From: Patescibacteria group bacterium
GTDB lineage: Bacteria > Patescibacteriota > JAQUNI01
Reading direction: 5' to 3'
DNA: 64,000 nt
Assembly: GCA_028717685.1 (NCBI GenBank)
Contig: JAQUNI010000001.1
Location: 54,306 to 118,305 of the forward strand
This document shows, one piece after another, positions 200 to 64,000 of the stretch. Position 1 is the stretch's first letter, and each line of letters opens with the position of its first letter. The notes beneath the pieces are model-generated. The model ran no database searches. It worked only from the letters and a program-made list of their open reading frames with translations, and was not told the origin of the DNA. The position numbers and the translations under genes were made by a program.

Positions 200-364
200 T
201 TTGCGCGGTAATAAAACCTACTTCGTATTCGAACTTACCTTCGAACCAATATCTTGGCTAATCTAAGCTCATTTTTGGGAAAATCGTCCGGACTGGGGTA
301 TCGAGGTCTTCGAATTAATATTTTGGCTAAAGAATCGCATTTTCAGGAAATTCGTATGGACTAG

Positions 365-436
<72 letters not shown>

Positions 437-445
437 AAAGACGAA

Positions 446-829
446 TTACGAAGTACGAATTATAGTTTTAGTAGTTTTAATGAGGCCATTGATCATTTTA
501 CTAAGTTCAATGGTTTGGGTAGCTACAGGGTCAAAATCTTTATTGCTCAAATAGTTTATATCTCTGGCAATTAACAACTGATTTTGAACCTCGGTTAAGG
601 ATCCTAAAGCGCGGCAATAAAACTGCATCTTCTCTTTATAAGAAGGTCTACTAAATCCTTCAGCAATATTAGAAGTGAAAGAAACGGCTGCTCTCCTTAA
701 TTGGCTAGTTAAACCAAAGATTTCTTCTCTGGGAAATTTTTGGGTGACTTTGTAGATCATCAAGACTAATTTGTGTCCTTCTTTCCAAACTCGCAAATCG
801 GTAAAAGATTTAATTTTATTTTGATCCAT
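446..829 (-). CDS. four-helix-bundle protein (23S rRNA intervening-sequence protein / Avd-like fold family)
   Basis: 127 aa. Shares the conserved core with the two pilus-locus paralogs (W-x-K, LT-Q-RRAAVS-SNIAEG). Lies 10 bp from tRNA-Gln. Confidence 0.6.
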   Translation of the reverse strand: MDQNKIKSFTDLRVWKEGHKLVLMIYKVTQKFPREEIFGLTSQLRRAAVSFTSNIAEGFSRPSYKEKMQFYCRALGSLTEVQNQLLIARDINYLSNKDFDPVATQTIELSKMINGLIKTTKTIIRTS

Positions 830-873
830 GAAAATTGTTTATCCGTGATTCGTAATTCGGAATTCGTGATTCG

Positions 874-2397: not shown

Positions 2398-2440
2398 AAA
2401 TTGGGAATGGGGAATTAAGAATTAGGAATCAGGAATAAGA

Positions 2441-11328: not shown

Positions 11329-11610
11329 ATGTTTGACTCTCTTAAAAATCTCAACCAATTAAGGCAACAAGCTAAAAAAATCAAAAAAGAATTAGGTAAA
11401 GAAATCTTGATCGGCACCGCGGAAGATGGCAAAATTCAAATCACGATGGACGGCAACCAAGAGGTGAAGGCTGTGCGCGTAGAACCGGATTTGCTTACTT
11501 CCGAAAACAAGGAAAAAATTGAAAAAGGCATCAAAGAAGCGATTACCCAATGCATTACCCAAATGCAAATGGCGATGGCAAGGAAGATGCAGAATGGAGG
11601 AATGTTTTAA
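11329..11610 (+). CDS. ybaB: nucleoid-associated protein YbaB/EbfC
   Basis: 93 aa with the typical YbaB pattern; sits upstream of recR, the classic arrangement. Confidence 0.85.
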   Translation: MFDSLKNLNQLRQQAKKIKKELGKEILIGTAEDGKIQITMDGNQEVKAVRVEPDLLTSENKEKIEKGIKEAITQCITQMQMAMARKMQNGGMF

Positions 11611-11746
11611 GTTAAAAGTTAAAAGTGCAAAGTGAAAAGTTGAATTTAAAGTTTAAAGTTTCTTTTGTAAAAGCAGCTGCTCCGCAATAATTTTGTACTT
11701 TAAACCGCAATTTTGAACTTTGAATTTTTAACTTTGAACTAATTTT

Positions 11747-14037: not shown

Positions 14038-14145
14038 TGAAAAAAATTAAAAATGAAAAGTGAAAAATGTAAAATTAAATTGAAAACAATTTTTTCATTT
14101 TAGATTGTGATTTTTAATTTTTCATTTTATATTTTACGTTTTCTA

Positions 14146-15735: not shown

Positions 15736-15793
15736 AAAAAAAATGTAAAATTAAAAATGAAAAATGTAAAATAACATTTGAGATTTTACATTT

Positions 15794-18044: not shown

Positions 18045-18181
18045 ATAATTTTCCCTGCGAAAAATTTTCAATTTTCAATTTCTAATTTTTATTAAATTTT
18101 TAATCTTAAAATTTTTAAACATTTAAAATTGATTTATTGAAAATTTAATAAAAATTGAAAATTAGAAATTAAAAATTACTT
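18045..18181. repeat. AT-rich MITE-like element, copy A (terminal inverted repeats aattttcaatttctaattt / aaattagaaattaaaaatt)
   Basis: Left TIR 18070..18088, right TIR about 18160..18178; element ends in aaaattactt directly abutting the ATG of the next gene. Highly similar to copy B. Confidence 0.55.
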
Positions 18182-19933: not shown

Positions 19934-20090
19934 ATTTCTAATTTTCAATTTCTAATTTCTATTAAATTTTTAATTTTAAAATTTTCAAACACCATTAGAA
20001 ATGAAAAATTTCTAGACGGGATAAACCTTTTAAAAATTAATTCATTAGAAATTTAATAAAAATTGAAAATTAGAAATTGAAAATTACTTA
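19934..20090. repeat. AT-rich MITE-like element, copy B
   Basis: Left TIR 19940..19958 and right TIR 20067..20085 are perfect reverse complements; internal sequence near-identical to copy A; right end overlaps the stop codon of the convergent gene. Confidence 0.55.
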
Positions 20091-27766: not shown

Positions 27767-27897
27767 AATATTGGTAATCAGTAATTAGTAATTAGTAATT
27801 GGTAATCGGGAGTCCTATAAATTACAAAATTTTTGAAAAGGAGTGAGCAAGAAAATTAGAGACAAATACTTAATTCCTGCTTCCTGATTTGTTCTTC

Positions 27898-31410: not shown

Positions 31411-31518
31411 AAAAAAGCGTAAAGTGAAAAGTGTAAAGCGTAAAGTGTAAAAAATAATAACCCAGTATTTTAAGTTGCACGCTGTTCATTTTATGCTTTA
31501 CGCTTTAAGTTTTAAGCT

Positions 31519-32559
31519 TTATTTATACTGCGTGTCCACCAACACCTCGCGCAAGAGGTCTAAATTTTCTAAGACCATGCCCGCGCCCCGAACAACACAA
31601 GTCAAGGGATCATTGGCGATCTGGACGGGCATCTGCGTCTCGCGTGCGACAAGACGGTCAAGACCGCGCAGGAGCGCGCCTCCGCCCGCCAAAATAATAC
31701 CCCGATCCATAATATCCGCGACAAGTTCAGGAGGGGTTTCCTCAATCGTTCCTTTAATATTAGAAACTAGATTTCTGATGGAACGCGATAAGGCTTCGCG
31801 CACCTGACTATCATTAATAATCACCTCCTTTGGCAGACCCGTGACGAGGTCCCGACCGCGCAACTTTGCTTCCAAGGGTTTCTTCAAAGGCCAAGCCGAG
31901 CCAATGGCGATTTTAATTTCTTCGGCTTTCCTTTCGCCGATTAATAAATTAAAGTGGTCGCGGGAATATTGAATAACATTCTCGTTTAATTCATCTCCCG
32001 CAATCCGCAACGATCGCGCCACCACGCCCCCGCCCAGAGAAATTACCGCCATCTCGGTTGTGCCGCCGCCGATATCCACAATCATACTTCCCGAAGCATC
32101 TTGCACGGGAAGGCGGGAACCGATGGCCGCGGCCATCGGTTCTTCAATCAAGAAAGCTTGCCTCGCGCCAGCCGTGCGCGTGGCATCCTCCACCGCTCGC
32201 CGCTCCACTTCGGTGCAGCCCGAAGGAATGCCAATCACTACCCTAGGTCGCGGAATAAGAGTGAACATTCCTTGGTGCACCTTCTGAATAAAATATTTTA
32301 ACATCTGCTCGGTCACTTCAAAATCAGAAATCACCCCGTCCACAAGTGGACGAGTGGCTACAATATGCATCGGCGTTCTTCCCACCATCTTTTTCGCTTC
32401 ATTGCCAATTGCCAAAACCTGACCCGTCTTCGTATTCATAGCCACGACCGAAGGCTCATTGATGACGATGCCTTTCCCACGCACATACACTAAGGTATTC
32501 GCTGTCCCTAAATCAATGCCGATGTCGCGGGAAAAAGCGCCTAAAAAACGATTAAACAT
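31519..32559 (-). CDS. mreB: rod shape-determining protein MreB (actin-like)
   Basis: 346 aa, IGIDLGTANTLVYV phosphate-1 motif and DIGGGTTE. Confidence 0.92.
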   Translation of the reverse strand: MFNRFLGAFSRDIGIDLGTANTLVYVRGKGIVINEPSVVAMNTKTGQVLAIGNEAKKMVGRTPMHIVATRPLVDGVISDFEVTEQMLKYFIQKVHQGMFTLIPRPRVVIGIPSGCTEVERRAVEDATRTAGARQAFLIEEPMAAAIGSRLPVQDASGSMIVDIGGGTTEMAVISLGGGVVARSLRIAGDELNENVIQYSRDHFNLLIGERKAEEIKIAIGSAWPLKKPLEAKLRGRDLVTGLPKEVIINDSQVREALSRSIRNLVSNIKGTIEETPPELVADIMDRGIILAGGGALLRGLDRLVARETQMPVQIANDPLTCVVRGAGMVLENLDLLREVLVDTQYK

Positions 32560-32624
32560 AATTTGGAATTAGGAATAGAGAATAATGAATAAGGAATAAG
32601 GAATTCTGAAAGTTACGCAATTCC

Positions 32625-32675
32625 TAAAAAAGGAGTAAGCAGAAATCTAAGGCAAACGCTTAACTCCTGCTTCCT
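32625..32675 (-). terminator. intrinsic terminator after proS
   Basis: On the minus strand: GGAGTTAAGC...GCTTACTCC stem (one bulge) followed by T6. A related sequence occurs after mrdA at 27833..27885. Confidence 0.5.
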
Positions 32676-32699
32676 AATTCCTGATTCCTGATTCCCAAC

Positions 32700-46994: not shown

Positions 46995-47102
46995 AAATTC
47001 GGAATTAGGAATAGGGAATTATGAATCATGAATCAGAAATTAGGAAGCGAGGAAAAAAGCTGTTCATCTTTATTCCTGATTCCTGATTCCCACTTCCTTT
47101 AG

Positions 47103-47561: not shown

Positions 47562-47640
47562 AATGTTGGAATTAGGAATTGTGAATCAGGAATTAGGAAA
47601 GAAGAAAAAAGGCTATTCATCTTTATTCCTTATTCAGATT

Positions 47641-48030
47641 TTATGTTTTTTCTGACGCCGACCTGCGACCGCTGCCTGCTGTTTTACGGACATTGCCCCG
47701 CACTGTCCGAGAGTTGGTGCGGGTACGTTGACCGCGGGCAGGAAGATTCTTCGCGTGCCGCGAGCCCCTATAACTTCCAATTTCTTTAAGACGTTTAATA
47801 TTGGTGGCGACTATCCTTCTTAAATCCCCTTCCACCTTATATTTTTTTTCAATAATATCCCGGAGCCTCCCTTCTTCTTCACTCGTCAGGAGAGACACAT
47901 GTTTATCGACATCCACCCGCGCCTCCACTAAAATTTTTCTAGCCAAAGATTGCCCTATGCCATAAATATAGGTTAAACCAATCTCTATTCTCTTATTGGG
48001 AGGTAAAATAACCCCTGCGATGCGAGCCAT
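47641..48030 (-). CDS. rpsM: 30S ribosomal protein S13
   Basis: 129 aa, [26 protein letters not shown]. Confidence 0.92.
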
Positions 48031-48132
48031 AAAATTGGAATTGTGAATTATGAATTATGAATTATGAAATTTGACAGCACATTCTTAATTTTAGATTTTC
48101 GCGATTCGTAATTCGTAATTCTAGATTCGGTG

Positions 48133-48931: not shown

Positions 48932-50707
48932 TTAGGGAAGGGCGCTTAAAACTTGAACTTCTATCTTTTTCTCCAAGGCAGGAACCTTTCGAACCCAAAA
49001 TGGCCAAAGGCGAATATCTACCTGCCGTACCTCCGCAAGCGATTGCAGATATTTTTGAGCCGCTTCTTTGTTTAAATTGACAATCTTTTCCTTAACCTTC
49101 CCCTCGTCAATTTTCCAAAATACCTCCTTTTCTATATGCACCGTCATTAGGGCTTTTTTTTCATTTAAATCAACGCTCTCTAACTTATAACTTACCCCCT
49201 CTTCAGAAAGATTAAGGATATATTTATCGGTTCCCAAAAGACTACTTACCGCGCGCAAGGCCGCATCCCGAGCCTCTTCTTGGGAAAAAATGAGCGCCCT
49301 CATTTGAATTTTAACGACGGTCTCAAATGTATCCGCTTCCTCGTCAACCTTCTTACTGTGTTTCACTTCCGAAACCTCGCTAATAAGCGCCCCCTCGGAT
49401 AAGGTAAACCCAGCAGGGAGATTATTATTAATTTCTGCGCGGGCGCTAGACGTGAGACTCTCAGTAATCGCTTTTTGCGCTTCCTCTAAATCCTTTTGGG
49501 TTACTATTTCTATATCGCGCGAAATTCCACCGACGAATGGATTACTGCTCTTCGCATAAATCTTCTCTTGTTTAGCGGGCGAAAAGGCCACGATGTAAAA
49601 ATCCGATGGTCCGATATTGCCTTCGGGACCAGCCTGATCCGCTACCACGCCGACCTTCACGCTGCCCGGAATCACCTTGCCTTCGCCAGAAACTGACGCA
49701 GGAGGAATAGTCACCTGACTTTCTGTCCGAAATAAAATATTTTCTCGCGACATTAAACGAGTAGTGGGCACAAGGAGCTGACTCACGCCCAATTCATTAT
49801 AAAGGATGACCTCTCCCCGCGCTTTTTCTAAAACCTGTTTCTTTCCCGTAGGTTTAAAAATTCGCGTTTCCTGTTTTTCCAAAGTAATGATCCGCCCGCT
49901 AATGCCCTCTTTTGAATTATCCGTTGCAGGGACGTCAGCTTTCACGACAAGGCTCACGTTCTCGCTCAAAGGTTCACTCTTGGGCACAATCGTAACCGTT
50001 GCCTTTGGTAAAATCAAAAAAATAATCACTAAAATCAGAAAAAAGCTAAAGCCGATAAATCCTAAACCCACTTTTGCCGAAAGAGAGGAAAGCCTTGTTG
50101 TTTTTCGTTTAGATCTCTTCTTTATCCTCCCTCTGTATTCTCTTTCGGGAGAAGGGTCCGGCGGGCGGGAAGAATCAGATTCCACAGGCGACGACCTCCG
50201 CCTTGGATCGGCGAGACTAGTCTGCCCAGAGGAAGAATCTTGCCGTAAAGGGTAAAACTTATTGCTCTTGGCACGGCGAATAATATCAGACACAGAGACC
50301 GCGGCCACGCCATCAGGGGACAAAAATGGATTGGCGGCTCGCGGAGAAGATTGACGCCAATCTTCTCTTTGCGGGATTGGATTTCCCATCTTCGTCTCTT
50401 GCGGCTTTTCAATCTCCGTAGTCAAGACTGCTTGGTTGCCTACTTTTTCTCGGACTTCTAAGCCGGCGCGAGTAGCCAGATGCTTCCCCAGTTGATCGGC
50501 GGTAACAATAATAATCTTTCGGCCTAAAATGTCACCCTGGCTTTTTAAAAGCTTCAGATTGATGAAACTTTGCGAGAGGAGAGCCCTTTGAGGAATTACC
50601 AAAATAATCTCTCTATCGGTAATCTTCCGAATCCGATCAATTACGCTCGTAATCTCTTCATCAATATCAATGTAAATGGTTTTCATAATAATAAACTCAA
50701 AGCTCAA
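48932..50707 (-). CDS. hypothetical membrane-anchored protein
   Basis: 591 aa; N-terminal soluble region, Ser/Pro/Arg-rich linker, single central TM (GLGFIGFSFFLILVIIFLIL), large C-terminal domain. No motif recognised. Confidence 0.45.
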   Translation of the reverse strand: MSFEFIIMKTIYIDIDEEITSVIDRIRKITDREIILVIPQRALLSQSFINLKLLKSQGDILGRKIIIVTADQLGKHLATRAGLEVREKVGNQAVLTTEIEKPQETKMGNPIPQREDWRQSSPRAANPFLSPDGVAAVSVSDIIRRAKSNKFYPLRQDSSSGQTSLADPRRRSSPVESDSSRPPDPSPEREYRGRIKKRSKRKTTRLSSLSAKVGLGFIGFSFFLILVIIFLILPKATVTIVPKSEPLSENVSLVVKADVPATDNSKEGISGRIITLEKQETRIFKPTGKKQVLEKARGEVILYNELGVSQLLVPTTRLMSRENILFRTESQVTIPPASVSGEGKVIPGSVKVGVVADQAGPEGNIGPSDFYIVAFSPAKQEKIYAKSSNPFVGGISRDIEIVTQKDLEEAQKAITESLTSSARAEINNNLPAGFTLSEGALISEVSEVKHSKKVDEEADTFETVVKIQMRALIFSQEEARDAALRAVSSLLGTDKYILNLSEEGVSYKLESVDLNEKKALMTVHIEKEVFWKIDEGKVKEKIVNLNKEAAQKYLQSLAEVRQVDIRLWPFWVRKVPALEKKIEVQVLSALP

Positions 50708-50736
50708 ATGTCAAAACTCAAAACTACAGGTCAAAA

Positions 50737-51096
50737 CTAAAAATTTTTCTTTTTATATTTTTTTAAAAGTTGATTTAATATTTTCAATAAAGGTTTTCGC
50801 CAATCATCTTCTAACTGAGATTTGATGAGTTGCACTAATATCTTATCTCCTGAAGTCAGATGCAATTTTTCCAACTTTTTACATTGAGCTAAAATTTCAA
50901 AATCAATATCGGTGGCTAAAACATATTTGCTTTTCTCTAATGGGGTTAACTGAAACTGCTTTGTCAATCTCTGTTTTCTTCTTTGAAGTAATTCCTGATA
51001 ATGCCTATCTTCTTTTAAAACTTTTCTTAATTTATATCCCTGATATCCTAGATTCAGATAAAAATCTTCAATCGCTTGCATTGATTTCTCTTGCAT
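50737..51096 (-). CDS. hypothetical protein
   Basis: 119 aa basic ORF immediately downstream of the FtsA-like gene on the same strand. Confidence 0.4.
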   Translation of the reverse strand: MQEKSMQAIEDFYLNLGYQGYKLRKVLKEDRHYQELLQRRKQRLTKQFQLTPLEKSKYVLATDIDFEILAQCKKLEKLHLTSGDKILVQLIKSQLEDDWRKPLLKILNQLLKKYKKKNF

Positions 51097-51118
51097 AACT
51101 TTTAACTTTTAACTTATC

Positions 51119-57312: not shown

Positions 57313-59061
57313 ATGAAGGACAAATTAAAAAACGATACAGTCAATTCCAACGGGGTGAAATTTGACGACAAAACAATAAAGAAGATTCTCTTAAAAGGGA
57401 ACTATATTACTGAAGAAGATGTTAAGAACGCGGATGATTTTGCCACAACGCACCAAGTGTCATTCATAGGGTATCTGCTCCAAGAAAATCTCATCACCAA
57501 GGACCTCTTGGGGCAGGCGATTGCCGAATCGTTCAAGGTTCCCTACGCTGACTTAAATTCAGCACCACCCGCACCTCTGCAGGTGCAAAAAATTCCGGAG
57601 GAGACCGCGAAAAAATATCACGCGGTTATTTTCGCTGAAGAAAAAAACAAAACCGTAGTCGCCACCGATAATCCAGAAGATCCAACACTCCTGCCGGAAT
57701 TAGAAAAGCTGTTTGTCGGCAGGAGGTTGAGCATTGTCTATTCGCTGACCGAGGACATCAACGCGAGCTTTGTGCATTATCAAAAGCCGCTTGAAACCCG
57801 CTTCTCTAAGATTATTGAGAGCAAAGGGCGAGTCGCGCCAGAGCTTTTGGAAGAAATTTTTGATGACGCGCTCGTATATCATGCCTCCGACATCCATTTT
57901 GAACCCAGGCAGAAAGATGTGCTTGTGCGGTTTCGCATTGACGGCGTTTTACAAGAAACCGGCAGGATCCCCAAAGAATATTACGAAAATATTCTTAATC
58001 GCATCAAGGTGCAAAGCGGTTTGCGCATTGATGAACACTTTGCCGCGCAAGACGGTTCGCTCCGGTATGAACCCTCCTCCTTTAAAGCTTCCTCCTACGC
58101 TAACGCTCCAGCGGGCAAAAAGGATAGCGTTGTTGTTGACCTTAGAACCTCAGTTGTCCCCACTGTTGAAGGAGAAAAAGTGGCATTGCGCGTACTCTCG
58201 GCATATGTGCAAGGATTTTCTCTTGGTGATCTTGGTCTTTCGCCGGCACATCAGCAGATACTTGAGCAAGCCGCCACAAAACCATTTGGCATGATTCTCG
58301 TAGCAGGTCCCACTGGTTCCGGAAAAACCACTACGCTTTACGCACTTTTGAAACTTGTAAATAGCCCAGAGGTGAACATCACCACTATTGAGGACCCGGT
58401 GGAGTACAGGGTGCTCGGCGTGAATCAAATTCAAATCAATCCTCTAACAAATCTCACTTTTGCCAAAGGACTGCGTTCTATCGTCCGCCAAGACCCGGAT
58501 ATTATTCTGGTCGGCGAGATTCGCGACGAAGAAACAGCAGAAATCGCCGTAAATGCGGCACTCACCGGCCATCTTCTCTACTCCACATTTCACGCCAACG
58601 ATGCCGCTACCGCCATTCCTCGGCTTCTGGATATGGGCATTGAACCGTTTCTTTTGGCTTCCACGCTTGAGGTTATTGTCGCCCAGCGACTCGTGCGTAA
58701 AATTTGCGAACATTGCCGGCATAGTGTTACCAAATCGGCAAATGATTGGAAGACGCCTCAGCTTCGGTCAGTTATGCCATATCTTTCCAAAAAGTCGATC
58801 ACGCTCTATGAAGGGAAGAAGTGCGAGATGTGCGGCTATACGGGGTACAAAGGACGAACTGCTATTTTTGAATTCATCCAAATCACTCCGGAGATGCGGA
58901 ATCTCATCTTACACTCCCCGTCAACTAAAGAAATCTGGCAACTCGCCAGTAAGGATGGTTCAAAAACACTTTTTGAAGACGGCATTGAAAAAGTTAAGAC
59001 TGGAGTAACCACAATAGAAGAGCTGCTTCGCGTCGCCGAACCGCCGCAGAAGAGTGGGTAG
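57313..59061 (+). CDS. pilB: type IV pilus assembly ATPase PilB (GspE family)
   Basis: 582 aa: N-terminal GSPII_E N1 domain, Walker A VAGPTGSGKTTT, Asp/His boxes, tetracysteine motif (CEHC...CEMC). Confidence 0.9.
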   Translation: MKDKLKNDTVNSNGVKFDDKTIKKILLKGNYITEEDVKNADDFATTHQVSFIGYLLQENLITKDLLGQAIAESFKVPYADLNSAPPAPLQVQKIPEETAKKYHAVIFAEEKNKTVVATDNPEDPTLLPELEKLFVGRRLSIVYSLTEDINASFVHYQKPLETRFSKIIESKGRVAPELLEEIFDDALVYHASDIHFEPRQKDVLVRFRIDGVLQETGRIPKEYYENILNRIKVQSGLRIDEHFAAQDGSLRYEPSSFKASSYANAPAGKKDSVVVDLRTSVVPTVEGEKVALRVLSAYVQGFSLGDLGLSPAHQQILEQAATKPFGMILVAGPTGSGKTTTLYALLKLVNSPEVNITTIEDPVEYRVLGVNQIQINPLTNLTFAKGLRSIVRQDPDIILVGEIRDEETAEIAVNAALTGHLLYSTFHANDAATAIPRLLDMGIEPFLLASTLEVIVAQRLVRKICEHCRHSVTKSANDWKTPQLRSVMPYLSKKSITLYEGKKCEMCGYTGYKGRTAIFEFIQITPEMRNLILHSPSTKEIWQLASKDGSKTLFEDGIEKVKTGVTTIEELLRVAEPPQKSG

Positions 59062-59067
59062 TAGGAT

Positions 59068-59084
59068 TAGTTGGTAGTTTGTAG
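59068..59084. repeat. left inverted repeat flanking four-helix-bundle gene 1
   Basis: tagttggtagtttgtag is the perfect reverse complement of 59468..59484. Confidence 0.7.
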
Positions 59085-59103
59085 TGAGTAGTTAGTAGTA
59101 AAT

Positions 59104-59463
59104 ATGAAAATTGAATCGTACGAAAATTTAATTGTGTGGCAAAAGTCAATGGATCTGGTGATTGCTGTTTATGCATTGACAGAAAAATTTCCAAAAGAAG
59201 AACTATACGGTTTAACTTCACAAATGCGCCGCGCAACTGTTTCAGTTCCTTCCAATATTGCGGAAGGTAGTAGGCGTGGTTCTCGAAAAAATTTTAGAAA
59301 TTTTTTACTCAATGCGTATGGTTCCAGTGCAGAGCTTGGGACTCAGATCAAAATCGCGAAACGGCTTTCATACGGAAAAACCAAAAATTATGAGCAAGCG
59401 GATGCACTGCTTGATGAAGTAATGCGCATGTTAGACAAATTGACGTATGGGCTCAAAGAATAA
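59104..59463 (+). CDS. four-helix-bundle protein (23S rRNA IVS-protein / Avd-like fold family), copy 1
   Basis: 119 aa (MKIESYENLIVWQKSMDLV...LTSQMRRATVSVPSNIAEG); about 92 percent identical to the copy at 61765..62124. Confidence 0.7.
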   Translation: MKIESYENLIVWQKSMDLVIAVYALTEKFPKEELYGLTSQMRRATVSVPSNIAEGSRRGSRKNFRNFLLNAYGSSAELGTQIKIAKRLSYGKTKNYEQADALLDEVMRMLDKLTYGLKE

Positions 59464-60886
59464 AAGTCTACAAACTACCAACTACAAACTACAAACTATC
59501 TTCCTAGGCAAAGAACGGGACTATTTTATTGAGAATTTAAGCATGCTGGTCGCCGCTGGCATGCCGATTTTGGGCGTTCTCGACTCCATTGCCAAAGAAC
59601 TGCGCTCGCGCCGCATGAAAAAAATTCTTGCTCTTATTCGGGAATATATTGAATCTGGCTCGCCAATTTGGAAAGCGCTTCAAACAACTAACCTGTTTGC
59701 CGACCACACTATCTCGCTTATCCGCCTTGGCGAAGAATCGGGAAAGCTTACGGAGAACTTAAAAGTGGTCGCGAATGAACAAGAAAAAAATCGGGTGTTC
59801 CACTCCAAGCTTCGTTCCGCCATAATGTATCCTGTATTCGTACTCTCACTCACGGTCATTATCGGTGTGGGCATTGCGTGGTTTATTTTGCCCAAGCTGG
59901 CGCTGGTGTTTGCCCAGCTTAAAATAACCTTGCCCCTTATCACAAAAATTTTGATCGGATCGGGAACATTTCTTGGCGAATATGGCCAATACGTCGTGCC
60001 CGCGGCAGTTATAGCAATATCAGTTATTTTTTTCTTTATTTTCTCATTTCCAAAAACAAAATTTATCGGGCAATTTATTTTATTTTCTTTGCCCGGCGTT
60101 AAACAACTTATTAAGGAAGTGGAGCTGGCGCGGCTCGGTTATCTTTTAGGCACGCTTCTTGACGCTGGACTGCCGGTAACCCAAGCGCTCAACTCGCTCG
60201 CAAGCGCTACCGAGATTGCGCCATACAAAAAACTCTACAAACACCTGCGCGACTCGGTAGAAGACGGCAATCCGTTCCGGAAAAGCTTTATTTCCTTTAA
60301 GCGCACTAATCATCTTATTCCCGAACCTATTCAGCAACTCATCGTCGCTGGTGAACAGTCAGGCACTCTTTCAGCAACTCTTCTTAAAATCGGAGAGACT
60401 TATGAAGCTAAAGCGGACACGACGACAAAAAATTTGACCGTGATTCTGGAGCCGATATTACTCGTCATCGTGTGGCTCGGCGTTGTAGCCGTGGCGTTAG
60501 CAGTGATTTTGCCAATCTACAGCCTTATCGGCGGATTTAACGCCAACCAGCCCGCAGCGGCACAGCCTCCTCCTGCCGAAGAACAGGTAATCAGTCCGCC
60601 GCCAAGTGTGGAAACAACAGCTCCAGATACAGAAACCGTGGAAGTAATACCCCCTCCGGATACAGAAATCATAGAGAAAAAACCAACAACGCTCCGCGTT
60701 CTTCCCACTAGCGTAGGGTATCTTAACGTGCGCGAGAAACCATCATTAACAAGTAAAATCGTCACGCGCGTTAAGCCGGGTGAAACATTTGAATACACTG
60801 AAAAAAACGAGAGCTGGTATAAAATTATTTTGCCGGATGGCAATTCCGGATGGGTGTTTGAAAAATATGTTGAAGAAAATGAATAA
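59447..60886 (+). CDS. pilC: type IV pilus platform protein PilC (GspF family) with C-terminal SH3b-like domain
   Basis: 479 aa: two GspF repeats and three TM segments, then a Pro/Thr/Glu-rich linker and an SH3b-like domain (YLNVREKPSLTSKIVTRVKPGETFEY...WYKI...GWV). ATG overlaps the 4HB stop. Confidence 0.85.
   Translation: MGSKNKSLQTTNYKLQTIFLGKERDYFIENLSMLVAAGMPILGVLDSIAKELRSRRMKKILALIREYIESGSPIWKALQTTNLFADHTISLIRLGEESGKLTENLKVVANEQEKNRVFHSKLRSAIMYPVFVLSLTVIIGVGIAWFILPKLALVFAQLKITLPLITKILIGSGTFLGEYGQYVVPAAVIAISVIFFFIFSFPKTKFIGQFILFSLPGVKQLIKEVELARLGYLLGTLLDAGLPVTQALNSLASATEIAPYKKLYKHLRDSVEDGNPFRKSFISFKRTNHLIPEPIQQLIVAGEQSGTLSATLLKIGETYEAKADTTTKNLTVILEPILLVIVWLGVVAVALAVILPIYSLIGGFNANQPAAAQPPPAEEQVISPPPSVETTAPDTETVEVIPPPDTEIIEKKPTTLRVLPTSVGYLNVREKPSLTSKIVTRVKPGETFEYTEKNESWYKIILPDGNSGWVFEKYVEENE
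59468..59484. repeat. right inverted repeat flanking four-helix-bundle gene 1 (also encodes the N-terminus of PilC)
   Basis: ctacaaactaccaacta; read in the pilC frame it encodes LQTTNYKLQT. Confidence 0.7.
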
Positions 60887-61038
60887 ACAAAACTAACAAA
60901 TGACACATAACATCTGACACATGACATTTGACACATATGAAACAAAAAAAATTATAGGAAAATAAAAGGGCATCGTCAGATGTTAGGTATCAGATGTTCC
61001 AAAAGGGTTTACCCAGCACCACTTTTTAGATTATAAAC

Positions 61039-61731
61039 ATGTATTACGTCTATACCTTAATTAGTAAGTTAAAAAATAAGACAGAAATATATATTGGATC
61101 AACAAATGATCTGAGAAGAAGACTAAGAGATCATAATAATGGTAAAGAAAGATCTACAAAACGTTATAGGACGTGGAATCTGATTTACTACGAAGCATAT
61201 ATAACAGAGAGTCTAGCAAGATTAAGAGAAAAACGATTGAAACATCACGGAAATGCGATGAAAGAATTAAAAAAAAGAATCGGATTATCCGAATGGAAAA
61301 GTGGTGCTGGGTTTACCTTGCTGGAAGTTCTTCTCTCTATCGCGGCGATCGCGATTATCGCCGTAATTTCTATTCCCATTTATCAGTCGTTTCAGGTGCG
61401 AAACGATCTTGATATCGCGACCATGGAAATTGCCCAAACTTTGCGGCGCGCGCAAGTACTTTCCCAAGCGGTTGATGGCGACACAAGCTGGGGCGTTTCT
61501 CTCGCAAGCGGAAATATCACGCTTTTTAAGGGCGTAAGTTACGCCACCCGCGATACCAATTTTGATGAAGTGTTTGATGTATCAACAAATATCACTCCAT
61601 CGGGACCTTCCGAAATCGTGTTTGTAAAATTTACAGGCTTACCACAGACCACGGGGACAATAATGCTATCCTCCAATATGAATGAAACGAGAAATATAGT
61701 AATTAACCAGAAGGGAATGGTTAATTATTAG
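61039..61731 (+). CDS. GIY-YIG nuclease domain fused in frame to a type IV prepilin
   Basis: 230 aa. Residues 1-90 are a complete GIY-YIG domain (YYVYTL...IYIGSTNDLRRRLRDHN...YYE...E). Residues 74-91 look like a prepilin leader (MKELKKRIGLSEWKSGAG) followed by the cleavage/methylation motif G/FTLLEV and a hydrophobic helix. Confidence 0.7.
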   Translation: MYYVYTLISKLKNKTEIYIGSTNDLRRRLRDHNNGKERSTKRYRTWNLIYYEAYITESLARLREKRLKHHGNAMKELKKRIGLSEWKSGAGFTLLEVLLSIAAIAIIAVISIPIYQSFQVRNDLDIATMEIAQTLRRAQVLSQAVDGDTSWGVSLASGNITLFKGVSYATRDTNFDEVFDVSTNITPSGPSEIVFVKFTGLPQTTGTIMLSSNMNETRNIVINQKGMVNY

Positions 61732-61736
61732 TTGGT

Positions 61737-61752
61737 AGTTTGTAGTGGGTAG
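61737..61752. repeat. left inverted repeat flanking four-helix-bundle gene 2
   Basis: agtttgtagtgggtag is the perfect reverse complement of 62129..62144. Confidence 0.7.
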
Positions 61753-61764
61753 TTGGTAGTAAAT

Positions 61765-62124
61765 ATGAAAATTGAATCATACGAAAATTTAATTGTGTGG
61801 CAAAAGTCAATGGATTTAGTGATTGCTGTTTATGCATTGACAGGAAAATTTCCAAAAGCAGAACTATACGGTTTAACTTCACAAATGCGCCGCGCGGCTG
61901 TTTCAATTCCTTCCAATATCGCGGAGGGGAGCAGGCGCGGTTCTCGGAAGGATTTTAGAAATTTTTTACTCAATGCGTATGGTTCTGGTGCAGAGCTTGA
62001 AACTCAAGTTAAAATTGCGAAACGACTTTCATACGGAAAAACCAAAGATTATGAGCAGGCGGACGCGCTGCTCGATGAAGTAATGCGCATGTTAAACAAA
62101 TTGACGTATGGGCTCAAAGAATAA
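61765..62124 (+). CDS. four-helix-bundle protein (23S rRNA IVS-protein / Avd-like fold family), copy 2
   Basis: 119 aa from the ATG at 61765 (the ORF track starts at an upstream TTG). Ten substitutions relative to copy 1. Confidence 0.7.
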   Translation: MKIESYENLIVWQKSMDLVIAVYALTGKFPKAELYGLTSQMRRAAVSIPSNIAEGSRRGSRKDFRNFLLNAYGSGAELETQVKIAKRLSYGKTKDYEQADALLDEVMRMLNKLTYGLKE

Positions 62125-62746
62125 AAATCTACCCACTACAAACTACAAACTACCCACTCAACAAGGCTTCAGCCTTGTTGAAGTTATTCTCGCCAGCGCG
62201 GTGTTTGTTTTGTTCGTTACCGCGCTTGTCGGAGCGTACCTCTATGGGCAGGAGTCAACCGCGCTTGCCGGCAATCGCGCGCGCGCGACGATTCTTGCCG
62301 AAGAAGGGCTTGAGGCAGTGCGCAATATCCGCGATGCCGGATTTTCTAATCTCACCGACGGCACCTACGGATTGGCTGTTGTCGGCAACCAATGGGCGTT
62401 ATTCGGAACATCAGACACAACGGGTATTTTTACCCGCCAAATTACAATTTCCGCTGTAGATTCAGAACGAAAAAGCGTGACTGCGAATGTCGCTTGGCAA
62501 CAAAATGCCCAGCGCCCGGGAGCAGTTGCCCTGACGACCTATCTTACTAACTGGAAAAAGGCGACTCCTGTCAATTCCTGCGATATTTACTGCCAGTTGT
62601 TGGGAACCTATACCACTGGTACCTGTCGGGAAAATTCCCAACAATGTACTAAGTATGACGAGATTTATGAGGCGGGCGGTGATCCTATTTGTGTGACTAG
62701 TTTTCCTGGCGACGCCAGCCATGATACTTGTTGCTGCAAACCATAA
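62108..62746 (+). CDS. type IV pilin-like protein with Cys-rich C-terminus
   Basis: 212 aa: leader MGSKNKNLPTTNYKLPTQQG, cleavage motif G/FSLVEV (Glu at +5), hydrophobic helix; eight Cys in the last 55 residues. ATG overlaps the 4HB copy 2 stop. Confidence 0.7.
   Translation: MGSKNKNLPTTNYKLPTQQGFSLVEVILASAVFVLFVTALVGAYLYGQESTALAGNRARATILAEEGLEAVRNIRDAGFSNLTDGTYGLAVVGNQWALFGTSDTTGIFTRQITISAVDSERKSVTANVAWQQNAQRPGAVALTTYLTNWKKATPVNSCDIYCQLLGTYTTGTCRENSQQCTKYDEIYEAGGDPICVTSFPGDASHDTCCCKP
62129..62144. repeat. right inverted repeat flanking four-helix-bundle gene 2 (encodes part of a prepilin leader)
   Basis: ctacccactacaaact; in the pilin frame it encodes LPTTNYKL. Confidence 0.7.
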
Positions 62747-62751
62747 TTTAG

Positions 62752-62823
62752 GGATTAGTTTGTAGTGAGTAGTTGGTAGGTTGTAGTTTTCTACTCACTA
62801 CTCACTACAAACTACAAACTAAC
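62752..62823. repeat. inverted-repeat hairpin of the leader-coding motif with no gene in the loop
   Basis: agtttgtagtgagtagttggtag...ctactcactactcactacaaactacaaact: the same arms that flank the 4HB genes, here adjacent, just upstream of the pilin ATG at 62824. Confidence 0.6.
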
Positions 62824-63348
62824 ATGCTACCAACTACAAACTACCAACTACAAACCCAGCGTGGCTTCACGCTAATTGAACTGCTTCTCTATGTTGCCGT
62901 TGCGTCGGCGATACTTTTGGCGATTTCGGTTTTTCTTTCAATCCTCCTTCAGTCGCGCATCAAAAATCAAACTATCGCTGAAGTGGAACAGCAGGGGCTT
63001 CAAGTTATGCAACTCGTTACGCAAACCGCGCGCAACGCCGAGGCAATCACCTCGCCAGCGCAGGGCGCAAGCGCTTCATCTTTGACGCTTGACGTTATTT
63101 CTGCTGCCAGTGACCCCACTATTTTTGATCTCGCAAGCGGCGCGATTCGCGTCAAAGAAGGGGCTGGTTCAGCTACCGCTCTTACTAATTCTCGCGTTAC
63201 CGCTTCCGCTCTCACATTCCAAAATCTCTCTCGCACCGACACTCCGGGCACGGTTCGCGTCCAATTCACCCTCGCACATACAAATCCAGAAGGCAGAAAT
63301 GAATACTCATTTACTAAAACATTTATCGGCTCTGCGAGCCTGCGCTAG
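62824..63348 (+). CDS. type IV pilin-like protein
   Basis: Start taken at ATG 62824 (ORF track: 62773). Leader MLPTTNYQLQTQRG, cleavage motif G/FTLIEL (Glu at +5), hydrophobic helix LLYVAVASAILLAISVF. Confidence 0.7.
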   Translation: MLPTTNYQLQTQRGFTLIELLLYVAVASAILLAISVFLSILLQSRIKNQTIAEVEQQGLQVMQLVTQTARNAEAITSPAQGASASSLTLDVISAASDPTIFDLASGAIRVKEGAGSATALTNSRVTASALTFQNLSRTDTPGTVRVQFTLAHTNPEGRNEYSFTKTFIGSASLR

Positions 63349-63480
63349 TCATAATGCGGCAAATGCCGCAACGACTGACACTTGATACCTAGCACCTGAC
63401 AACTGACCACTAACATCTAACATTTTGTTAGGTGTCAGATGCCAAATGTCAGGTGTTAGGTGCTAGGTGTCAAGTGTTAA

Positions 63481-63927
63481 TTGTATAGAACCAGGTTATT
63501 CACACTCATGATTATTTTAAAATATAAAAAGTGTTATAATAAACAGGAGGATGGGTTCATTACCCTAATAAGTGTCTTGGTGGTTGGAGCGGTTGGAATA
63601 GCCCTCACAATTTCCGTGATTTTGCTCGGGCTTGGGTCGTCGCGAACAAGTTTTACGAATGAGCAGTCAAACCAAGCGAAAGCCCTCACTAACGCCTGTG
63701 CCGAAGAAGCTCTTCAGCAAATTCGTGATTCTGTGAATTTTGAAGGTACCGGTAGCCTTACTTTAGGTCTGGGCAGCTGCACCTATACCGTGACCAAACT
63801 TGTTAGCCAGAACCGAACCGTCACCGCCAGCGGGACAGTGGGAACAATCATAAGAAAAGCAAGTATTGCTCTTGATACAATCAGACCGAGCATCAACATC
63901 ACTTCCTGGCAAGAGGTGGCTGATTAG
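63481..63927 (+). CDS. minor pilin/pseudopilin-like protein
   Basis: 148 aa: G/FITLIS followed by a hydrophobic helix (VLVVGAVGIALTISVILLG); Ser instead of Glu at +5. True start is probably an internal Met. Confidence 0.5.
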   Translation: MYRTRLFTLMIILKYKKCYNKQEDGFITLISVLVVGAVGIALTISVILLGLGSSRTSFTNEQSNQAKALTNACAEEALQQIRDSVNFEGTGSLTLGLGSCTYTVTKLVSQNRTVTASGTVGTIIRKASIALDTIRPSINITSWQEVAD

Positions 63928-64000
63928 TTAGTAGTTTGTAGTGAGTAGTGAATAAAAAACTACCAACTAACACGCTACCAACTACAAGCTAAATAAACAT
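63928..64000. repeat. further copy of the pilin-leader inverted-repeat motif at the window edge
   Basis: agttagtagtttgtagtgagtagtg...ctaccaactaacacgctaccaactacaagc; probably precedes another pilin-like gene beyond the window. Confidence 0.45.

What the first reader, a model, noticed from the sequence alone, without database searches (positions are those of the whole stretch)
59062..59510. Four-helix-bundle gene sits in the loop of an inverted repeat between pilB and pilC, translationally coupled to pilC
Perfect 17-bp inverted repeats (59068..59084 and 59468..59484) bracket a 119-aa four-helix-bundle gene. In 23S rRNA intervening sequences, proteins of this family are encoded in the loop of a long stem that RNase III excises; the same geometry appears here inside a protein-coding pilus operon. 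The 4HB stop overlaps the pilC ATG (ATGGGCTCAAAGAATAA), and the right repeat arm is translated as the PilC N-terminus (MGSKNKSLQTTNYKLQT). This suggests a hairpin-bounded module that could process the pilB-pilC transcript or gate pilC translation.
Basis: partly seen in the sequence, partly recalled or inferred. Interest (0 to 1): 0.8.

Follow-up and report, generated by a model that had tools for sequence, protein, structure and literature searches.

The report
Hairpin-bounded 4HB cassette in pilus operon
A small four-helix-bundle gene enclosed by two complementary runs of 7-base repeats sits seamlessly between pilB and pilC and supplies pilC's start codon; it has the architecture of the classic 23S rRNA "intervening sequence", and in 80 related loci from many phyla (none of them in rRNA) this gene family is bracketed the same way.

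Summary
A perfect 17-nt inverted repeat, extending to 31 nt, brackets a 119-aa PF05635 gene (E 8e-39). All three modules in the window fold with the arms as the closing stem. The pilC ATG lies inside the 4HB 3' end, and the right arm encodes PilC residues 8-17. NCBI's annotation and the N-termini of PilC homologues agree with that start.

- The arms are tandem heptamer arrays (TAGTTKG / CTACAAA).
- The window holds three such modules and about 20 heptamer hairpins in all.
- In 77 testable related loci from many phyla, 45 have arm-pairing scores of 14 or more, against 1/429 and 2/228 controls. Units differ by locus, but the arms stay complementary and the 5' arm keeps a YAG(T/G) core.
- Relatives keep the same pilB-pilC site occupied (L081), ORF-deleted (L082, L083) or decayed (L086).

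The Coxiella IVS stem is also heptameric and is cut by RNase III.

Function is inferred, not shown. The likeliest role is a translation-gating, RNase III-sensitive intercistronic stem. Arm mismatches show no G.U bias, so DNA-level maintenance is not excluded.

This is a new variant of a known kind. My literature searches found no paper describing the family-wide heptamer rule.

The parts
57313..59061 (+). pilB (T2SSE ATPase). Its TAG stop (59059-59061) lies in the degenerate 5' extension of the left heptamer array.
   Evidence: Pfam T2SSE E 3e-114; sequence. In relatives L082 and L083 the pilB stop is a TAG inside the array.
59061..59099 (+). Module 1, 5' arm: tandem heptamers TAGTTGG TAGTTTG TAGTGAG TAGTTAG TAGT.
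   Evidence: TRF period 7, 4.6 copies; inverted repeats I1/I4; forms the closing stem in MFE and centroid.
59104..59463 (+). 4HB-1: 119-aa four-helix-bundle (IVS-family) gene in the loop.
   Evidence: PF05635 E 8e-39; TIGR02436; 2GSC E 7.5e-26. dN/dS 0.11 against 4HB-2. NCBI MDD5626507.1.
59468..59498 (+). Module 1, 3' arm: CTACAAA CTACCAA CTACAAA CTACAAA CTA. Translated as PilC residues 8-17.
   Evidence: ORF translation.
59447..60886 (+). pilC (T2SSF with a C-terminal SH3_3 domain). Its ATG lies inside the last codons of 4HB-1 (17-nt overlap).
   Evidence: Pfam; homologue N-termini; the exact 479-aa product is annotated by NCBI as MDD5626508.1.
61729..61760 (+). Module 2, 5' arm (TAGTTGG TAGTTTG TAGTGGG TAGTTGG TAGT).
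61765..62124 (+). 4HB-2: 92% aa identity to 4HB-1, with dS 0.33.
62129..62159 (+). Module 2, 3' arm (CTACCCA CTACAAA CTACAAA CTACCCA CTC). Translated as part of a prepilin leader.
   Evidence: Homology between modules 1 and 2 stops exactly at the array ends.
62108..62746 (+). Prepilin whose ATG lies inside 4HB-2. The leader MGSKNKNLPTTNYKLPTQQG|FSLVEV is module-encoded.
   Evidence: N_methyl motif; NCBI MDD5626511.1 has the same start.
841..873 (-). Module 3, 5' arm (sense strand is minus): CGAATCA CGAATTC CGAATTA CGAATCA CGGAT, directly after the dnaX stop.
446..829 (-). 4HB-3: 127 aa, about 40-42% identity to 4HB-1.
   Evidence: PF05635 E 3e-37; tblastn; alignment.
441..462 (-). Module 3, 3' arm (TAATTCG TACTTCG TAATTCGT). 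Overlaps the 4HB-3 C-terminus and ends 5 nt before tRNA-Gln (436..364).
62755..62855 (+). ORF-less hairpin of the same TAGTTKG unit family. The next prepilin's ATG (62824) lies within the 3' arrays (leader MLPTTNYQLQTQRG|FTLIELL).
   Evidence: fold dG -40.8, z -5.3.
63915..63991 (+). ORF-less hairpin of the same unit family. The upstream gene's stop TAG (63925-63927) is in the 5' arm.
   Evidence: fold z -4.6.
63375..63480 (+). ORF-less heptamer hairpin with a stem of about 47 bp (unit CTGACAC / TGTTAGG) between two pilin-cluster genes.
   Evidence: fold dG -63.7, z -12.1.
60895..60998 (+). ORF-less heptamer hairpin (GACACAT / GTCAGAT) downstream of pilC.
   Evidence: fold z -4.9.
11604..11740 (+). 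Representative ORF-less intercistronic heptamer hairpin elsewhere in the window. The others are at 14042-14142, 15739-15796, 18063-18178, 19933-20086, 31411-31523, 32560-32695, 46996-47097 and 48028-48121.
   Evidence: The arms abut the upstream stop and end 0-6 nt before the next start.

Best explanation
What it is (shown). This is an IVS-type cassette: a PF05635 four-helix-bundle gene enclosed by two complementary arrays of about 4.5 tandem heptamers, inserted seamlessly between two co-directional genes. The layout matches the ORF-bearing intervening sequence of 23S rRNA, but here it sits in an mRNA. The host genes now depend on it:
- pilB terminates at a TAG belonging to the 5' array.
- pilC, and a prepilin at module 2, start at an ATG inside the last codons of the 4HB gene and read through the 3' array.

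The cassette is old at this site. Relatives have it intact (L081), with the ORF deleted but the hairpin and the 4HB start codon retained (L082), as an ORF-less hairpin with a different, compensated unit (L083), or decayed (L086).

How it most likely works (inferred). On the operon transcript the two arrays pair into a 25-31 bp duplex that buries the start regions, and this organism hardly uses Shine-Dalgarno sites. A ribosome finishing pilB would melt the 5' arm, exposing the 4HB start 4 nt beyond it. A ribosome finishing 4HB would re-initiate at the overlapping pilC ATG and read through the freed 3' arm. This gives a coupled chain pilB to 4HB to pilC. Transcripts that are not being translated keep the duplex, which is the kind of substrate RNase III cuts in the homologous Coxiella and Leptospira IVSs. 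For pilC such a cut is an OFF event, because it separates the ATG from the gene body.

The periodic arms allow pairing in several registers and can be regenerated by slippage, which would explain fast unit turnover with preserved complementarity.
For: Identity:
- Family matches.
- The GxxRxxxSxxxNxxE motif is conserved (G36, R43, S47, N51, E54; motif from PMC3936711).

Stem:
- The arm-arm stem closes both MFE and centroid structures in all three modules, with z -5.7, -8.0 and -0.9.

Generality and covariation:
- 45/77 loci have arm-pairing scores of 14 or more, against 1/429 shifted and 2/228 cross-locus controls (MWU p 5e-37 and 2e-32). There is a period-7 autocorrelation peak on both flanks.
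- Only 5/200 other genes in the same loci are bracketed.
- Compensatory unit changes occur at the orthologous site: TAGTTTG/CAAACTA in the window, TAGCTTN/NAAGCTA in L083, GTGAG/CTCAC in L081, and GTGGG/CCCAC in module 2.

Seamless intercistronic placement (48 strong loci):
- Median gap from upstream stop to array is 1 nt.
- Median gap from array to next start is 8 nt.

Host dependence:
- PilC core and N-termini.
- The L082 deletion allele MKIASY-KLQT-LFLGKERDYF.
- NCBI starts.

Other support:
- The protein is functional: dN/dS is about 0.11 for module 1 vs module 2 and vs L081.
- The genome is SD-poor: 6/54 genes have an SD-like motif.
- Experimental precedent: the Coxiella IVS has a 28-bp stem, tandem GACAGAT heptamers with strain-variable copy number, and an RNase III cut mapped at the first repeat (PMC4990558).
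Against: - There are no transcript data for this organism, so both coupling and cleavage are inferred.
- Arm mismatches show no G.U excess over A.C (36 vs 42, p 0.57). An RNA-specific constraint would predict such an excess.
- RNase III cleavage within the stem would decapitate pilC and the prepilin, so cleavage cannot be the productive pathway here.
- Module 3 forms the stem, but its overall fold is not better than shuffles (z -0.9).
- Two ORF-less hairpins in the same operon carry the YAG arm on the 3' side (sequences).
- The model does not explain why the period is 7 or why a YAG(T/G) core is conserved.
- RNase III itself was not looked for; only 64 kb of the genome was available.
Confidence: 0.55

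Rival explanations
1. Protein-recognition arrays. The 4HB protein, a homopentameric toroid in the solved relative, binds the YAG(T/G)NNN heptamers at roughly one subunit per repeat, on RNA or DNA. The cassettes and the many ORF-less heptamer hairpins would then form a cis/trans regulatory or RNP system, and the stem would be secondary to protein binding. This is not exclusive of the best explanation.
For: - The 5'-arm units have a strand-specific conserved core: AG in 42/47 units against 25 expected, preceded by T or C in 37/42 and followed by T or G in 34/42.
- The median is 4.5 repeats per arm, IQR 3.8-5.4, against a pentamer in Xcc0516/2GSC (PMC4990558 citing Lin 2006).
- The protein is under strong purifying selection.
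- Unit similarity tracks protein similarity (Spearman -0.18, p 5e-11).
- Within the window, the two unit families (TAGTTKG and NGAATYA) match the two 4HB clades present and recur in ORF-less hairpins.
Against: - There is no binding evidence of any kind.
- Co-divergence of unit and protein is equally explained by common descent of whole modules.
- Many ORF-less hairpins in the window have A/T-rich units without YAG (AAAAATG, AATTTTC).
- Array lengths range from 2.4 to 16 repeats.
- Coxiella S23p appears not to be made, yet its IVS is still processed (PMC4990558).
Confidence: 0.25
2. A DNA-level selfish element. The arrays act as terminal inverted repeats or recombination substrates of a small non-autonomous mobile cassette. 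It spreads by recombination or template switching between heptamer arrays, arm complementarity is kept by DNA-level homogenisation, and the RNA stem is incidental.
For: - Homology between modules 1 and 2 starts and stops exactly at the outer ends of the arrays, about 435 bp.
- The same unit family fills four consecutive spacers of the pil cluster.
- At the orthologous prepilin in L082, a different 4HB clade and unit occupy the same position, which suggests cassette turnover.
- G.U and A.C mismatches are symmetric, as expected if both strands are equivalent.
- Copy number of the heptamers varies between Coxiella strains (PMC4990558).
Against: - There is no transposase or recombinase in or next to any module.
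- No target-site duplication is seen.
- dS of 0.33 between the two window copies argues against recent transposition.
- The site has been occupied since before lineages with 68-84% PilC identity diverged.
- The 4HB gene is almost always co-oriented with both neighbours and abuts their stop and start codons. That points to a constraint linked to transcription or translation, not random insertion.
Confidence: 0.2
3. An invertible DNA switch (inverton). The inverted repeats are recombination sites, and flipping the 4HB segment removes pilC's start codon, giving phase-variable piliation.
For: Inverted repeats flank a roughly 400-bp segment upstream of surface-structure genes. Inversion would uncouple pilC and the prepilin from their ATGs.
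Against: - No invertase is nearby.
- Orientation is fixed relative to the neighbours in the related loci: a co-directional upstream ORF in 47/48 strong loci and a co-directional downstream ORF in 69/80.
- The same architecture occurs next to dnaX/tRNA and many housekeeping genes, and in rRNA (PMC4990558).
- Periodic arrays of variable unit are not typical recombinase sites.
Confidence: 0.03
4. An Avd accessory protein of a diversity-generating retroelement.
For: Weak similarity to bAvd (PF22296, 30.9 bits) and to NF033474 DivGenRetAVD (32 bits). DGRs are common in CPR bacteria (my own knowledge).
Against: - Both scores are below the curated cut-offs (40 and 80 bits).
- The neighbours of all three modules are pilB, pilC, pilins, dnaX and a tRNA, with no reverse transcriptase.
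- No TR/VR-type long direct repeat was reported around the module.
Confidence: 0.02

Closest known systems
ORF-bearing intervening sequence (IVS) of 23S rRNA (Coxiella burnetii, Leptospira; S23p/PF05635)
   Same: - Same protein family.
- The ORF lies in the loop of a stem formed by terminal inverted repeats about 400 nt apart.
- In Coxiella the 5' arm is likewise made of tandem heptamers (GACAGAT, containing the CAG core), with strain-variable copy number.
- The ORF start lies just inside the stem (PMC4990558).
   Different: - The host transcript is an mRNA operon, not rRNA. No rRNA is in the window, and 0/80 related loci are in rRNA.
- Flanking protein genes take their stop and start codons from the cassette, and one arm is translated.
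- The 4HB gene is under purifying selection, whereas Coxiella S23p is decaying and apparently untranslated.
- RNase III excision has not been shown here and would be destructive for pilC.
Intergenic heptamer repeats: cyanobacterial STRR, Xanthomonas GGGAATC inverted pairs, Beggiatoa/cyanobacterial TAACTGA repeats
   Same: - Tandem 7-nt units in intergenic or intercistronic spacers, often abutting start codons.
- Sometimes in inverted pairs: 70 pairs in X. campestris (PMC4692102), and Nostoc hupS-asr0689 TTGTCAG with the complementary CTGACTA array (PMC2408588).
- The STRR units as I recall them (CCCCAGT, TTGTCAG, CAACAGT) and the reverse complement of TAACTGA (TCAGTTA) share the CAGT core found here (PMC4679880).
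   Different: - Those papers treat the repeats as stand-alone simple repeats (G-quadruplexes, translational regulators, typing markers), and none links them to a 4HB gene.
- Here the arrays are the two arms of a cassette carrying PF05635.
- ORF-less hairpins can arise from such cassettes by deletion of the ORF (L082).
DGR accessory variability determinant (Avd)
   Same: Distantly homologous four-helix bundle. The solved relatives are pentamers (PMC10053308; PMC4990558 citing Lin 2006).
   Different: - Below the Avd model cut-offs.
- No reverse transcriptase, TR or VR nearby.
- Whether Avd genes have a heptamer bracket was not examined.
REP/REPIN and MITE-type intergenic palindromes
   Same: Short intergenic inverted repeats that are transcribed within operons and can affect mRNA processing.
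   Different: - REPs and MITEs have a genome-wide conserved sequence and depend on a transposase (RAYT or IS).
- Here each hairpin has its own unit, the arms are internally periodic, the cargo is a 4HB gene, and no transposase is associated.
Structure-mediated translational coupling (for example the coat-replicase hairpin of RNA phage MS2; established knowledge, not tested here)
   Same: A long-range stem hides a downstream start and is opened by ribosomes translating the upstream cistron. A stop/start overlap (ATG...TAA, or ATGA in L082) is present.
   Different: The stem here is a periodic repeat array enclosing a whole extra gene. Coupling is inferred from geometry only.

Membership tests
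PF05635 / TIGR02436 four-helix-bundle (23S rRNA IVS) protein | Profile score above the curated cut-off | tested here: met
   PF05635 scores 132.6, 136.7 and 127.3 bits (cut-off 33.8). TIGR02436 scores 124.7 and 122.1 bits (cut-off 24).
PF05635 / TIGR02436 four-helix-bundle (23S rRNA IVS) protein | Conserved motif GxxRxxxSxxxNxxE | tested here: met
   G36, R43, S47, N51 and E54 are invariant in alignment A1. The motif is as given in PMC3936711.
PF05635 / TIGR02436 four-helix-bundle (23S rRNA IVS) protein | Four-helix-bundle fold assembling into a pentameric toroid | not tested
   Only sequence homology to 2GSC (E 7.5e-26 over residues 6-114). No structure was predicted and the oligomeric state was not assessed.
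rRNA intervening sequence (IVS) | Inserted in a helix of 23S (or 16S) rRNA | tested here: not met
   There is no rRNA in the window; the only Rfam hit is tRNA-Gln. The flanks are pilB/pilC, pilins and dnaX/tRNA.
rRNA intervening sequence (IVS) | Terminal inverted repeats forming a stem that encloses the ORF | tested here: met
rRNA intervening sequence (IVS) | Excision by RNase III at the stem | not testable with these tools
   Needs transcript-end mapping or an in-vitro assay. The precedent exists only in Coxiella and Leptospira (PMC4990558).
DGR Avd | Score above the NF033474 / PF22296 cut-offs | tested here: not met
   32 and 27.5 bits against a cut-off of 80; 30.9 and 28.5 bits against a cut-off of 40.
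DGR Avd | Adjacent reverse transcriptase with a TR/VR repeat pair | tested here: not met
   All neighbours of the three modules were identified and none is a reverse transcriptase. No long direct repeat lies around the module. The rest of the genome was not available.
STRR-type intergenic heptamer repeats | Tandem 7-nt units in intergenic or intercistronic DNA | tested here: met
   TRF and autocorrelation.
STRR-type intergenic heptamer repeats | CAGT-like core shared with STRR1-3 and with the reverse complement of TAACTGA | tested here: met
   YAG(T/G) is present in 42/47 units across loci, and the window unit is TAGTTKG. The STRR unit sequences come from my own knowledge and from PMC2408588 and PMC4679880.
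Inverton (invertible promoter/segment) | Site-specific recombinase nearby and both orientations observed | tested here: not met
   No recombinase is adjacent. Orientation is constant relative to the neighbours in the related loci. Read-level data were not available.
MITE / insertion sequence | Target-site duplication and a cognate transposase | tested here: not met
   No direct repeat lies at the module borders, and there is no transposase in the modules or their neighbours.

The most novel reading that the evidence does not exclude
PF05635 four-helix-bundle genes and the long-unexplained intergenic heptamer repeats (STRR, GGGAATC, TAACTGA and similar) are two halves of one widespread system. 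The system would be a cassette whose pentameric 4HB protein reads YAG(T/G)NNN heptamer arrays, about one repeat per subunit. It would install register-tolerant stems exactly between cistrons to control coupling and processing of operon mRNAs. The 23S rRNA IVSs would be the rare rRNA-borne special case, and ORF-less heptamer hairpins would be its relics or trans targets.
Probability: 0.25. Interest if true: 0.9.

Novelty: new variant of a known kind. Interest (0 to 1): 0.75.

Why it matters

This locus and the 80-locus comparison tie the two together and give concrete, testable predictions:
- arm-dependent translational coupling,
- RNase III sensitivity,
- 4HB binding to its heptamer array.

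The window shows that host genes can become dependent on such a cassette for their stop codon, start codon and N-terminal residues (pilB, pilC and prepilin leaders). This matters for gene calling in CPR genomes.

It also cautions against reading 4HB genes inside cas or other operons as functional partners of those systems. The cmr3-4HB-cmr2 example in PMC3936711 has the same tight intercistronic placement.

Tried and rejected
1. Universal terminator / open reading idea. The idea was that TAG in every 5'-arm unit closes all three frames while the 3' arm stays open. It is true for the window, but support across loci is weak: all 3 frames are closed in 20/48 left arms against 13/48 right arms. 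I dropped it as a general explanation.

2. G.U versus A.C mismatch asymmetry, as a test for selection on the sense RNA. There is no asymmetry (36 vs 42), so it gives no support for a purely RNA-level constraint.

3. Anti-phage defence annotation. There are no PADLOC hits.

4. Known RNA families. No Rfam family covers any hairpin.

5. The look-up of encoding contigs with the window's 4HB found nothing. The exact look-up recovered the NCBI records instead.

6. HEPN-clan relationship recalled from memory. No HEPN family appears in Pfam even at E up to 10, and the literature search gave nothing usable. I make no such claim.

7. Integron attC analogy (7-bp core sites). I considered it by reasoning only and set it aside: there are tandem arrays rather than a single core pair, and no integrase is adjacent.

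8. Intrinsic terminators. I set this aside by inspection: no U-tract follows the 3' arms.

9. A weak fourth 4HB tblastn hit at 40083-39907 (E 0.02) lies inside an mreB-like ORF and is treated as spurious.

10. Ralph and McClelland 1993 (PMC47033) could not be read.
Full report
**1. Checking the observation**

The sequence is as described.
- Arms 59068-59084 and 59468-59484 are perfectly complementary over 17 nt, and pairing extends to 31 nt at 87%.
- The motif is far beyond chance: 23 matches with up to 3 mismatches in the window against 0.06 expected.
- The enclosed ORF 59104-59463 (119 aa) is a clear member of PF05635 / TIGR02436 and a homologue of the solved Xcc0516 protein, PDB 2GSC.
- The neighbours are PilB (57313-59061) and PilC (59447-60886).
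- The pilC ATG lies inside the last codons of the 4HB gene, a 17-nt overlap, and the ORF reads through the right arm.
- Folding 59040-59520 as RNA gives an MFE and a centroid structure that both close with the arm-arm stem (dG -140.4 kcal/mol, z -5.7).

**2.

The arms are not arbitrary inverted repeats. They are tandem heptamer arrays, TAGTTGG TAGTTTG TAGTGAG TAGTTAG TAGT on the left and CTACAAA CTACCAA CTACAAA CTACAAA CTA on the right.

The window holds two more modules of the same build.
- Module 2: arrays 61729-61760 and 62129-62159 around 4HB-2 (61765-62124, 92% aa identity). It is followed by a prepilin whose ATG (62108) is again inside the 4HB 3' end. Its leader MGSKNKNLPTTNYKLPTQQG|FSLVEV is module-encoded.
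- Module 3 (minus strand): arrays 873-841 and 462-441 around 4HB-3 (829-446, about 40-42% identity). It lies between dnaX and tRNA-Gln and uses a different unit, CGAATYA / TAATTCG, whose arms are still complementary.

About 41 period-7 arrays, roughly 20 hairpins, are spread over the 64 kb. Almost all fill intercistronic spacers from the upstream stop codon to within 0-6 nt of the next start. In the pil cluster every spacer carries one. Two ORF-less hairpins (62755-62855 and 63915-63991) use the same unit family as modules 1 and 2.

NCBI's annotation of this Patescibacteria MAG (722-kb contig) independently calls the same 4HB, PilC and prepilin products with the same starts.

**3. Is the right arm really translated?**

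PilC homologues share a conserved core, (F/L)GLGKERDYFVENLSML, preceded by a variable stretch of 5-35 residues. In the window the core (IFLGKERDYF) begins immediately after the right arm. The only canonical start upstream of it is the ATG at 59447.

Orthologous junctions in relatives form a natural allelic series.
- L081 (PilC 68% identical): the same 17-nt 4HB/pilC overlap, with arms GTAGTGA/GTAGTTG against CTACTCA.
- L082: no 4HB between pilB and pilC. The left array is followed by the 4HB start and six codons (MKIASY), fused directly to right-arm heptamers (KLQT) and then the PilC core. This is an internal deletion that leaves PilC using the former 4HB ATG.
- L083-L085: an ORF-less hairpin with a changed but compensated unit (TTAGCTT / AAGCTAC). 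The ATG is in the loop and the arm is translated.
- L086-L087: a decayed 4HB C-terminal remnant.

In L082 and L083 the pilB stop codon is a TAG within the left array. In the window it lies in the array's degenerate 5' extension. At the orthologous prepilin in L082, a different 4HB clade with a different unit (GAATATG / CATATTC, 26 nt at 92%) occupies the same place. It has an ATGA stop/start overlap and its arm is read as the leader.

The cassette is therefore old at this site, and the host genes depend on it for a stop codon, a start codon and N-terminal residues. It sits where protein sequence is least constrained: the variable PilC N-terminus and the cleaved prepilin leader.

**4. Generality**

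A scan of one genome per species with a 4HB alignment returned 80 loci. They come from CPR lineages, Acidobacteriota, Bacteroidota, Clostridia, Planctomycetota, Cyanobacteria, Gamma- and Deltaproteobacteria, Verrucomicrobiota and Elusimicrobiota.

I scored the best ungapped complement between the 160 nt upstream and the 160 nt downstream of each 4HB gene.
- 45 of 77 testable loci reach a score of 14 or more.
- Only 1 of 429 same-geometry windows shifted within the same loci does so.
- Only 2 of 228 pairings of a left flank with another locus's right flank do so (MWU p 5e-37 and 2e-32).
- Autocorrelation of both flanks peaks only at period 7 (0.40 and 0.42 against 0.26) and its harmonic 14.
- Only 5 of 200 other genes in these loci are bracketed at their own boundaries. 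Those are an IS, a REP/RAYT pair, low-complexity matches, and a single heptamer bracket around a non-4HB ORF.

The unit differs from locus to locus (TAGTGAG, CAGTGAG, AGTTCAC, GTCAGTA, GGACAGT, TCGTATG and others), but the two arms of a locus match each other. This is arm covariation on a large scale.

Units diverge faster than the proteins yet correlate with protein similarity (Spearman -0.18, p 5e-11).

The 5'-arm unit keeps a strand-specific core.
- AG occurs in 42 of 47 units against 25 expected.
- It is preceded by T or C in 37 of 42 and followed by T or G in 34 of 42.
- Arrays have a median of 4.5 repeats.

The placement is seamless and co-directional.
- The median gap from upstream stop to left array is 1 nt.
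- The median gap from right array to next start is 8 nt.
- The arrays lie about 400 nt apart.
- The downstream start falls inside the cassette in a minority of loci (6 of 44), as it does in the window.

None of the 80 loci is in an rRNA gene.

**5. Relation to what is known**

The Coxiella burnetii IVS is the best-studied ORF-bearing IVS. It has a 28-bp terminal stem whose 5' arm consists of tandem GACAGAT heptamers. Copy number varies between strains, and the RNase III cut was mapped by RACE at the first repeat. Its S23p ORF is decaying and apparently untranslated (PMC4990558). The window's modules are therefore the same kind of element in a different host transcript. They differ in having a protein under purifying selection: dN/dS is 0.11-0.12 for module 1 against module 2 and against L081. 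dS is 0.33 between the two window copies, so they are not a recent duplication.

Intergenic heptamer repeats are known but unexplained.
- Xanthomonas GGGAATC repeats include about 70 inverted pairs (PMC4692102).
- Nostoc STRR-type arrays occur in operon spacers (PMC2408588).
- TAACTGA repeats end 1 nt before start codons in Beggiatoa and occur in cyanobacteria (PMC4679880).
- Several of these units contain the same CAGT core.

A 4HB gene wedged between cmr3 and cmr2 in Pleurocapsa, with 85-nt and 5-nt spacers, was read as a CRISPR association (PMC3936711). It fits the generic intercistronic cassette. In nine full-text searches I found no paper that links PF05635 genes in general to heptamer-array stems. 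The absence of a hit is not proof of novelty.

**6. Mechanism**

Shown:
- the anatomy,
- the family assignment,
- the predicted stems,
- arm covariation,
- host-gene dependence.

Inferred: this genome is nearly free of Shine-Dalgarno sites (6 of 54 genes), so a 25-47 bp stem ending a few nucleotides before a start codon should dominate initiation. The stems begin at or within the upstream stop codon, so a terminating ribosome would open them. That would enforce translational coupling: pilB to 4HB to pilC in module 1, and upstream gene to downstream gene at ORF-less hairpins. Untranslated transcripts would retain a duplex of the kind RNase III cleaves in the rRNA IVSs. For pilC and the prepilin such a cut separates the ATG from the gene body, so it would act as an OFF event rather than as maturation.

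Caveats:
- There are no transcript data.
- Arm mismatches show no G.U excess over A.C (36 vs 42). Complementarity may therefore be maintained at the DNA level, by slippage plus template switching between arms, or by selection for fully Watson-Crick duplexes.
- Module 3's overall fold is unremarkable (z -0.9).
- Two hairpins in the operon have the opposite YAG polarity.
- Neither the period of 7 nor the YAG core is explained. Together with the roughly 4.5 repeats per arm and the pentameric relatives, these keep open the possibility that the 4HB protein itself reads the arrays.

**7. Verdict**

The structural and coupling parts of the interpretation are supported, but the processing function is unproven.

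The element is a new variant of a known kind: an IVS-type 4HB cassette in mRNA, with host genes grafted onto it. The family-wide heptamer rule uncovered along the way seems to me the more important result. I found no prior description of it in the library I could search.

Noticed in passing
window 61039-61731 (+): A GIY-YIG nuclease domain is fused in frame to a prepilin (N_methyl motif at aa 90-111), and NCBI annotates it as one 230-aa protein. An internal ATG would give the leader MKELKKRIGLSEWKSGAG|FTLLEV. So a second kind of selfish ORF also sits directly on a pilin start in this cluster.
   Followed up: partly
window, all predicted starts: Only 6 of 54 genes have an SD-like tetramer at -16..-6. 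The organism appears to initiate mostly without Shine-Dalgarno pairing.
   Followed up: partly
window 63375-63480 (+): An exceptionally long ORF-less heptamer hairpin: a stem of about 47 bp, dG -63.7 kcal/mol, z -12. The YAG-type arm is on the 3' side, the opposite polarity to the 4HB modules.
   Followed up: partly
window 441-873 (-) and 364-436 (-): Module 3 lies between the dnaX stop and tRNA-Gln. Its 3' array overlaps the 4HB C-terminus (…IIRTS*) and ends 5 nt before the tRNA, so tRNA 5' maturation and the cassette share a transcript.
   Followed up: partly
window 2412-2450, 27770-27807, 32560-32695, 46996-47097, 47568-47599, 48028-48121: ORF-less arrays of the NGAATYA unit family, the same family as the arms of 4HB-3, are scattered through ribosomal-protein and other operons. 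The TAGTTKG family is confined to the pil cluster.
   Followed up: partly
window 50693-51115 (-): A 119-aa ORF (50737-51096) with no Pfam hit sits between two heptamer arrays (AAACTCA x7 and TAACTTT x3) that are not complementary to each other.
   Followed up: partly
L082 7596-8055: At the orthologous prepilin of a relative, a different 4HB clade with a different unit (GAATATG / CATATTC) occupies the same position. It has an ATGA stop/start overlap, and the arm is read as the leader MKKRSPYSIFNIPHSTQG|FSLVEV. This suggests cassette replacement at a fixed site.
   Followed up: partly
L018 3925-4771: Heptamer arms (TAGAACG TAGTGCG TAGAA / complement) bracket a 221-aa non-4HB ORF in a Kaiserbacteria genome. 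This may be a cassette with different cargo.
   Followed up: no
L035 4529-5251: REP-like 19-nt perfect palindrome arms flank a RAYT-like ORF. One arm is called by Rfam as Acido-Lenti-1 RNA (RF01687), which suggests that this family may be a REP element.
   Followed up: no
P0102 (Uhrbacteria 4HB), C-terminus: The protein ends …SLQTTNYKL, the peptide encoded by CTACAAA heptamers. In that genome the 3' array therefore runs into the 4HB coding region, with the same unit as in the window.
   Followed up: no
window 59447-60886 and homologues P0121-P0240: PilC here and in about half of the listed CPR homologues carries a C-terminal SH3_3 domain (PF08239) after a Pro/Glu-rich linker. The shorter homologues (about 355-375 aa) lack it.
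   Followed up: no
protein cluster of window PilC: The 90%-identity cluster that holds this PilC has a 38-aa transposase-like fragment as its representative (P0242-P0245). This is a clustering artefact in the protein collection.
   Followed up: yes
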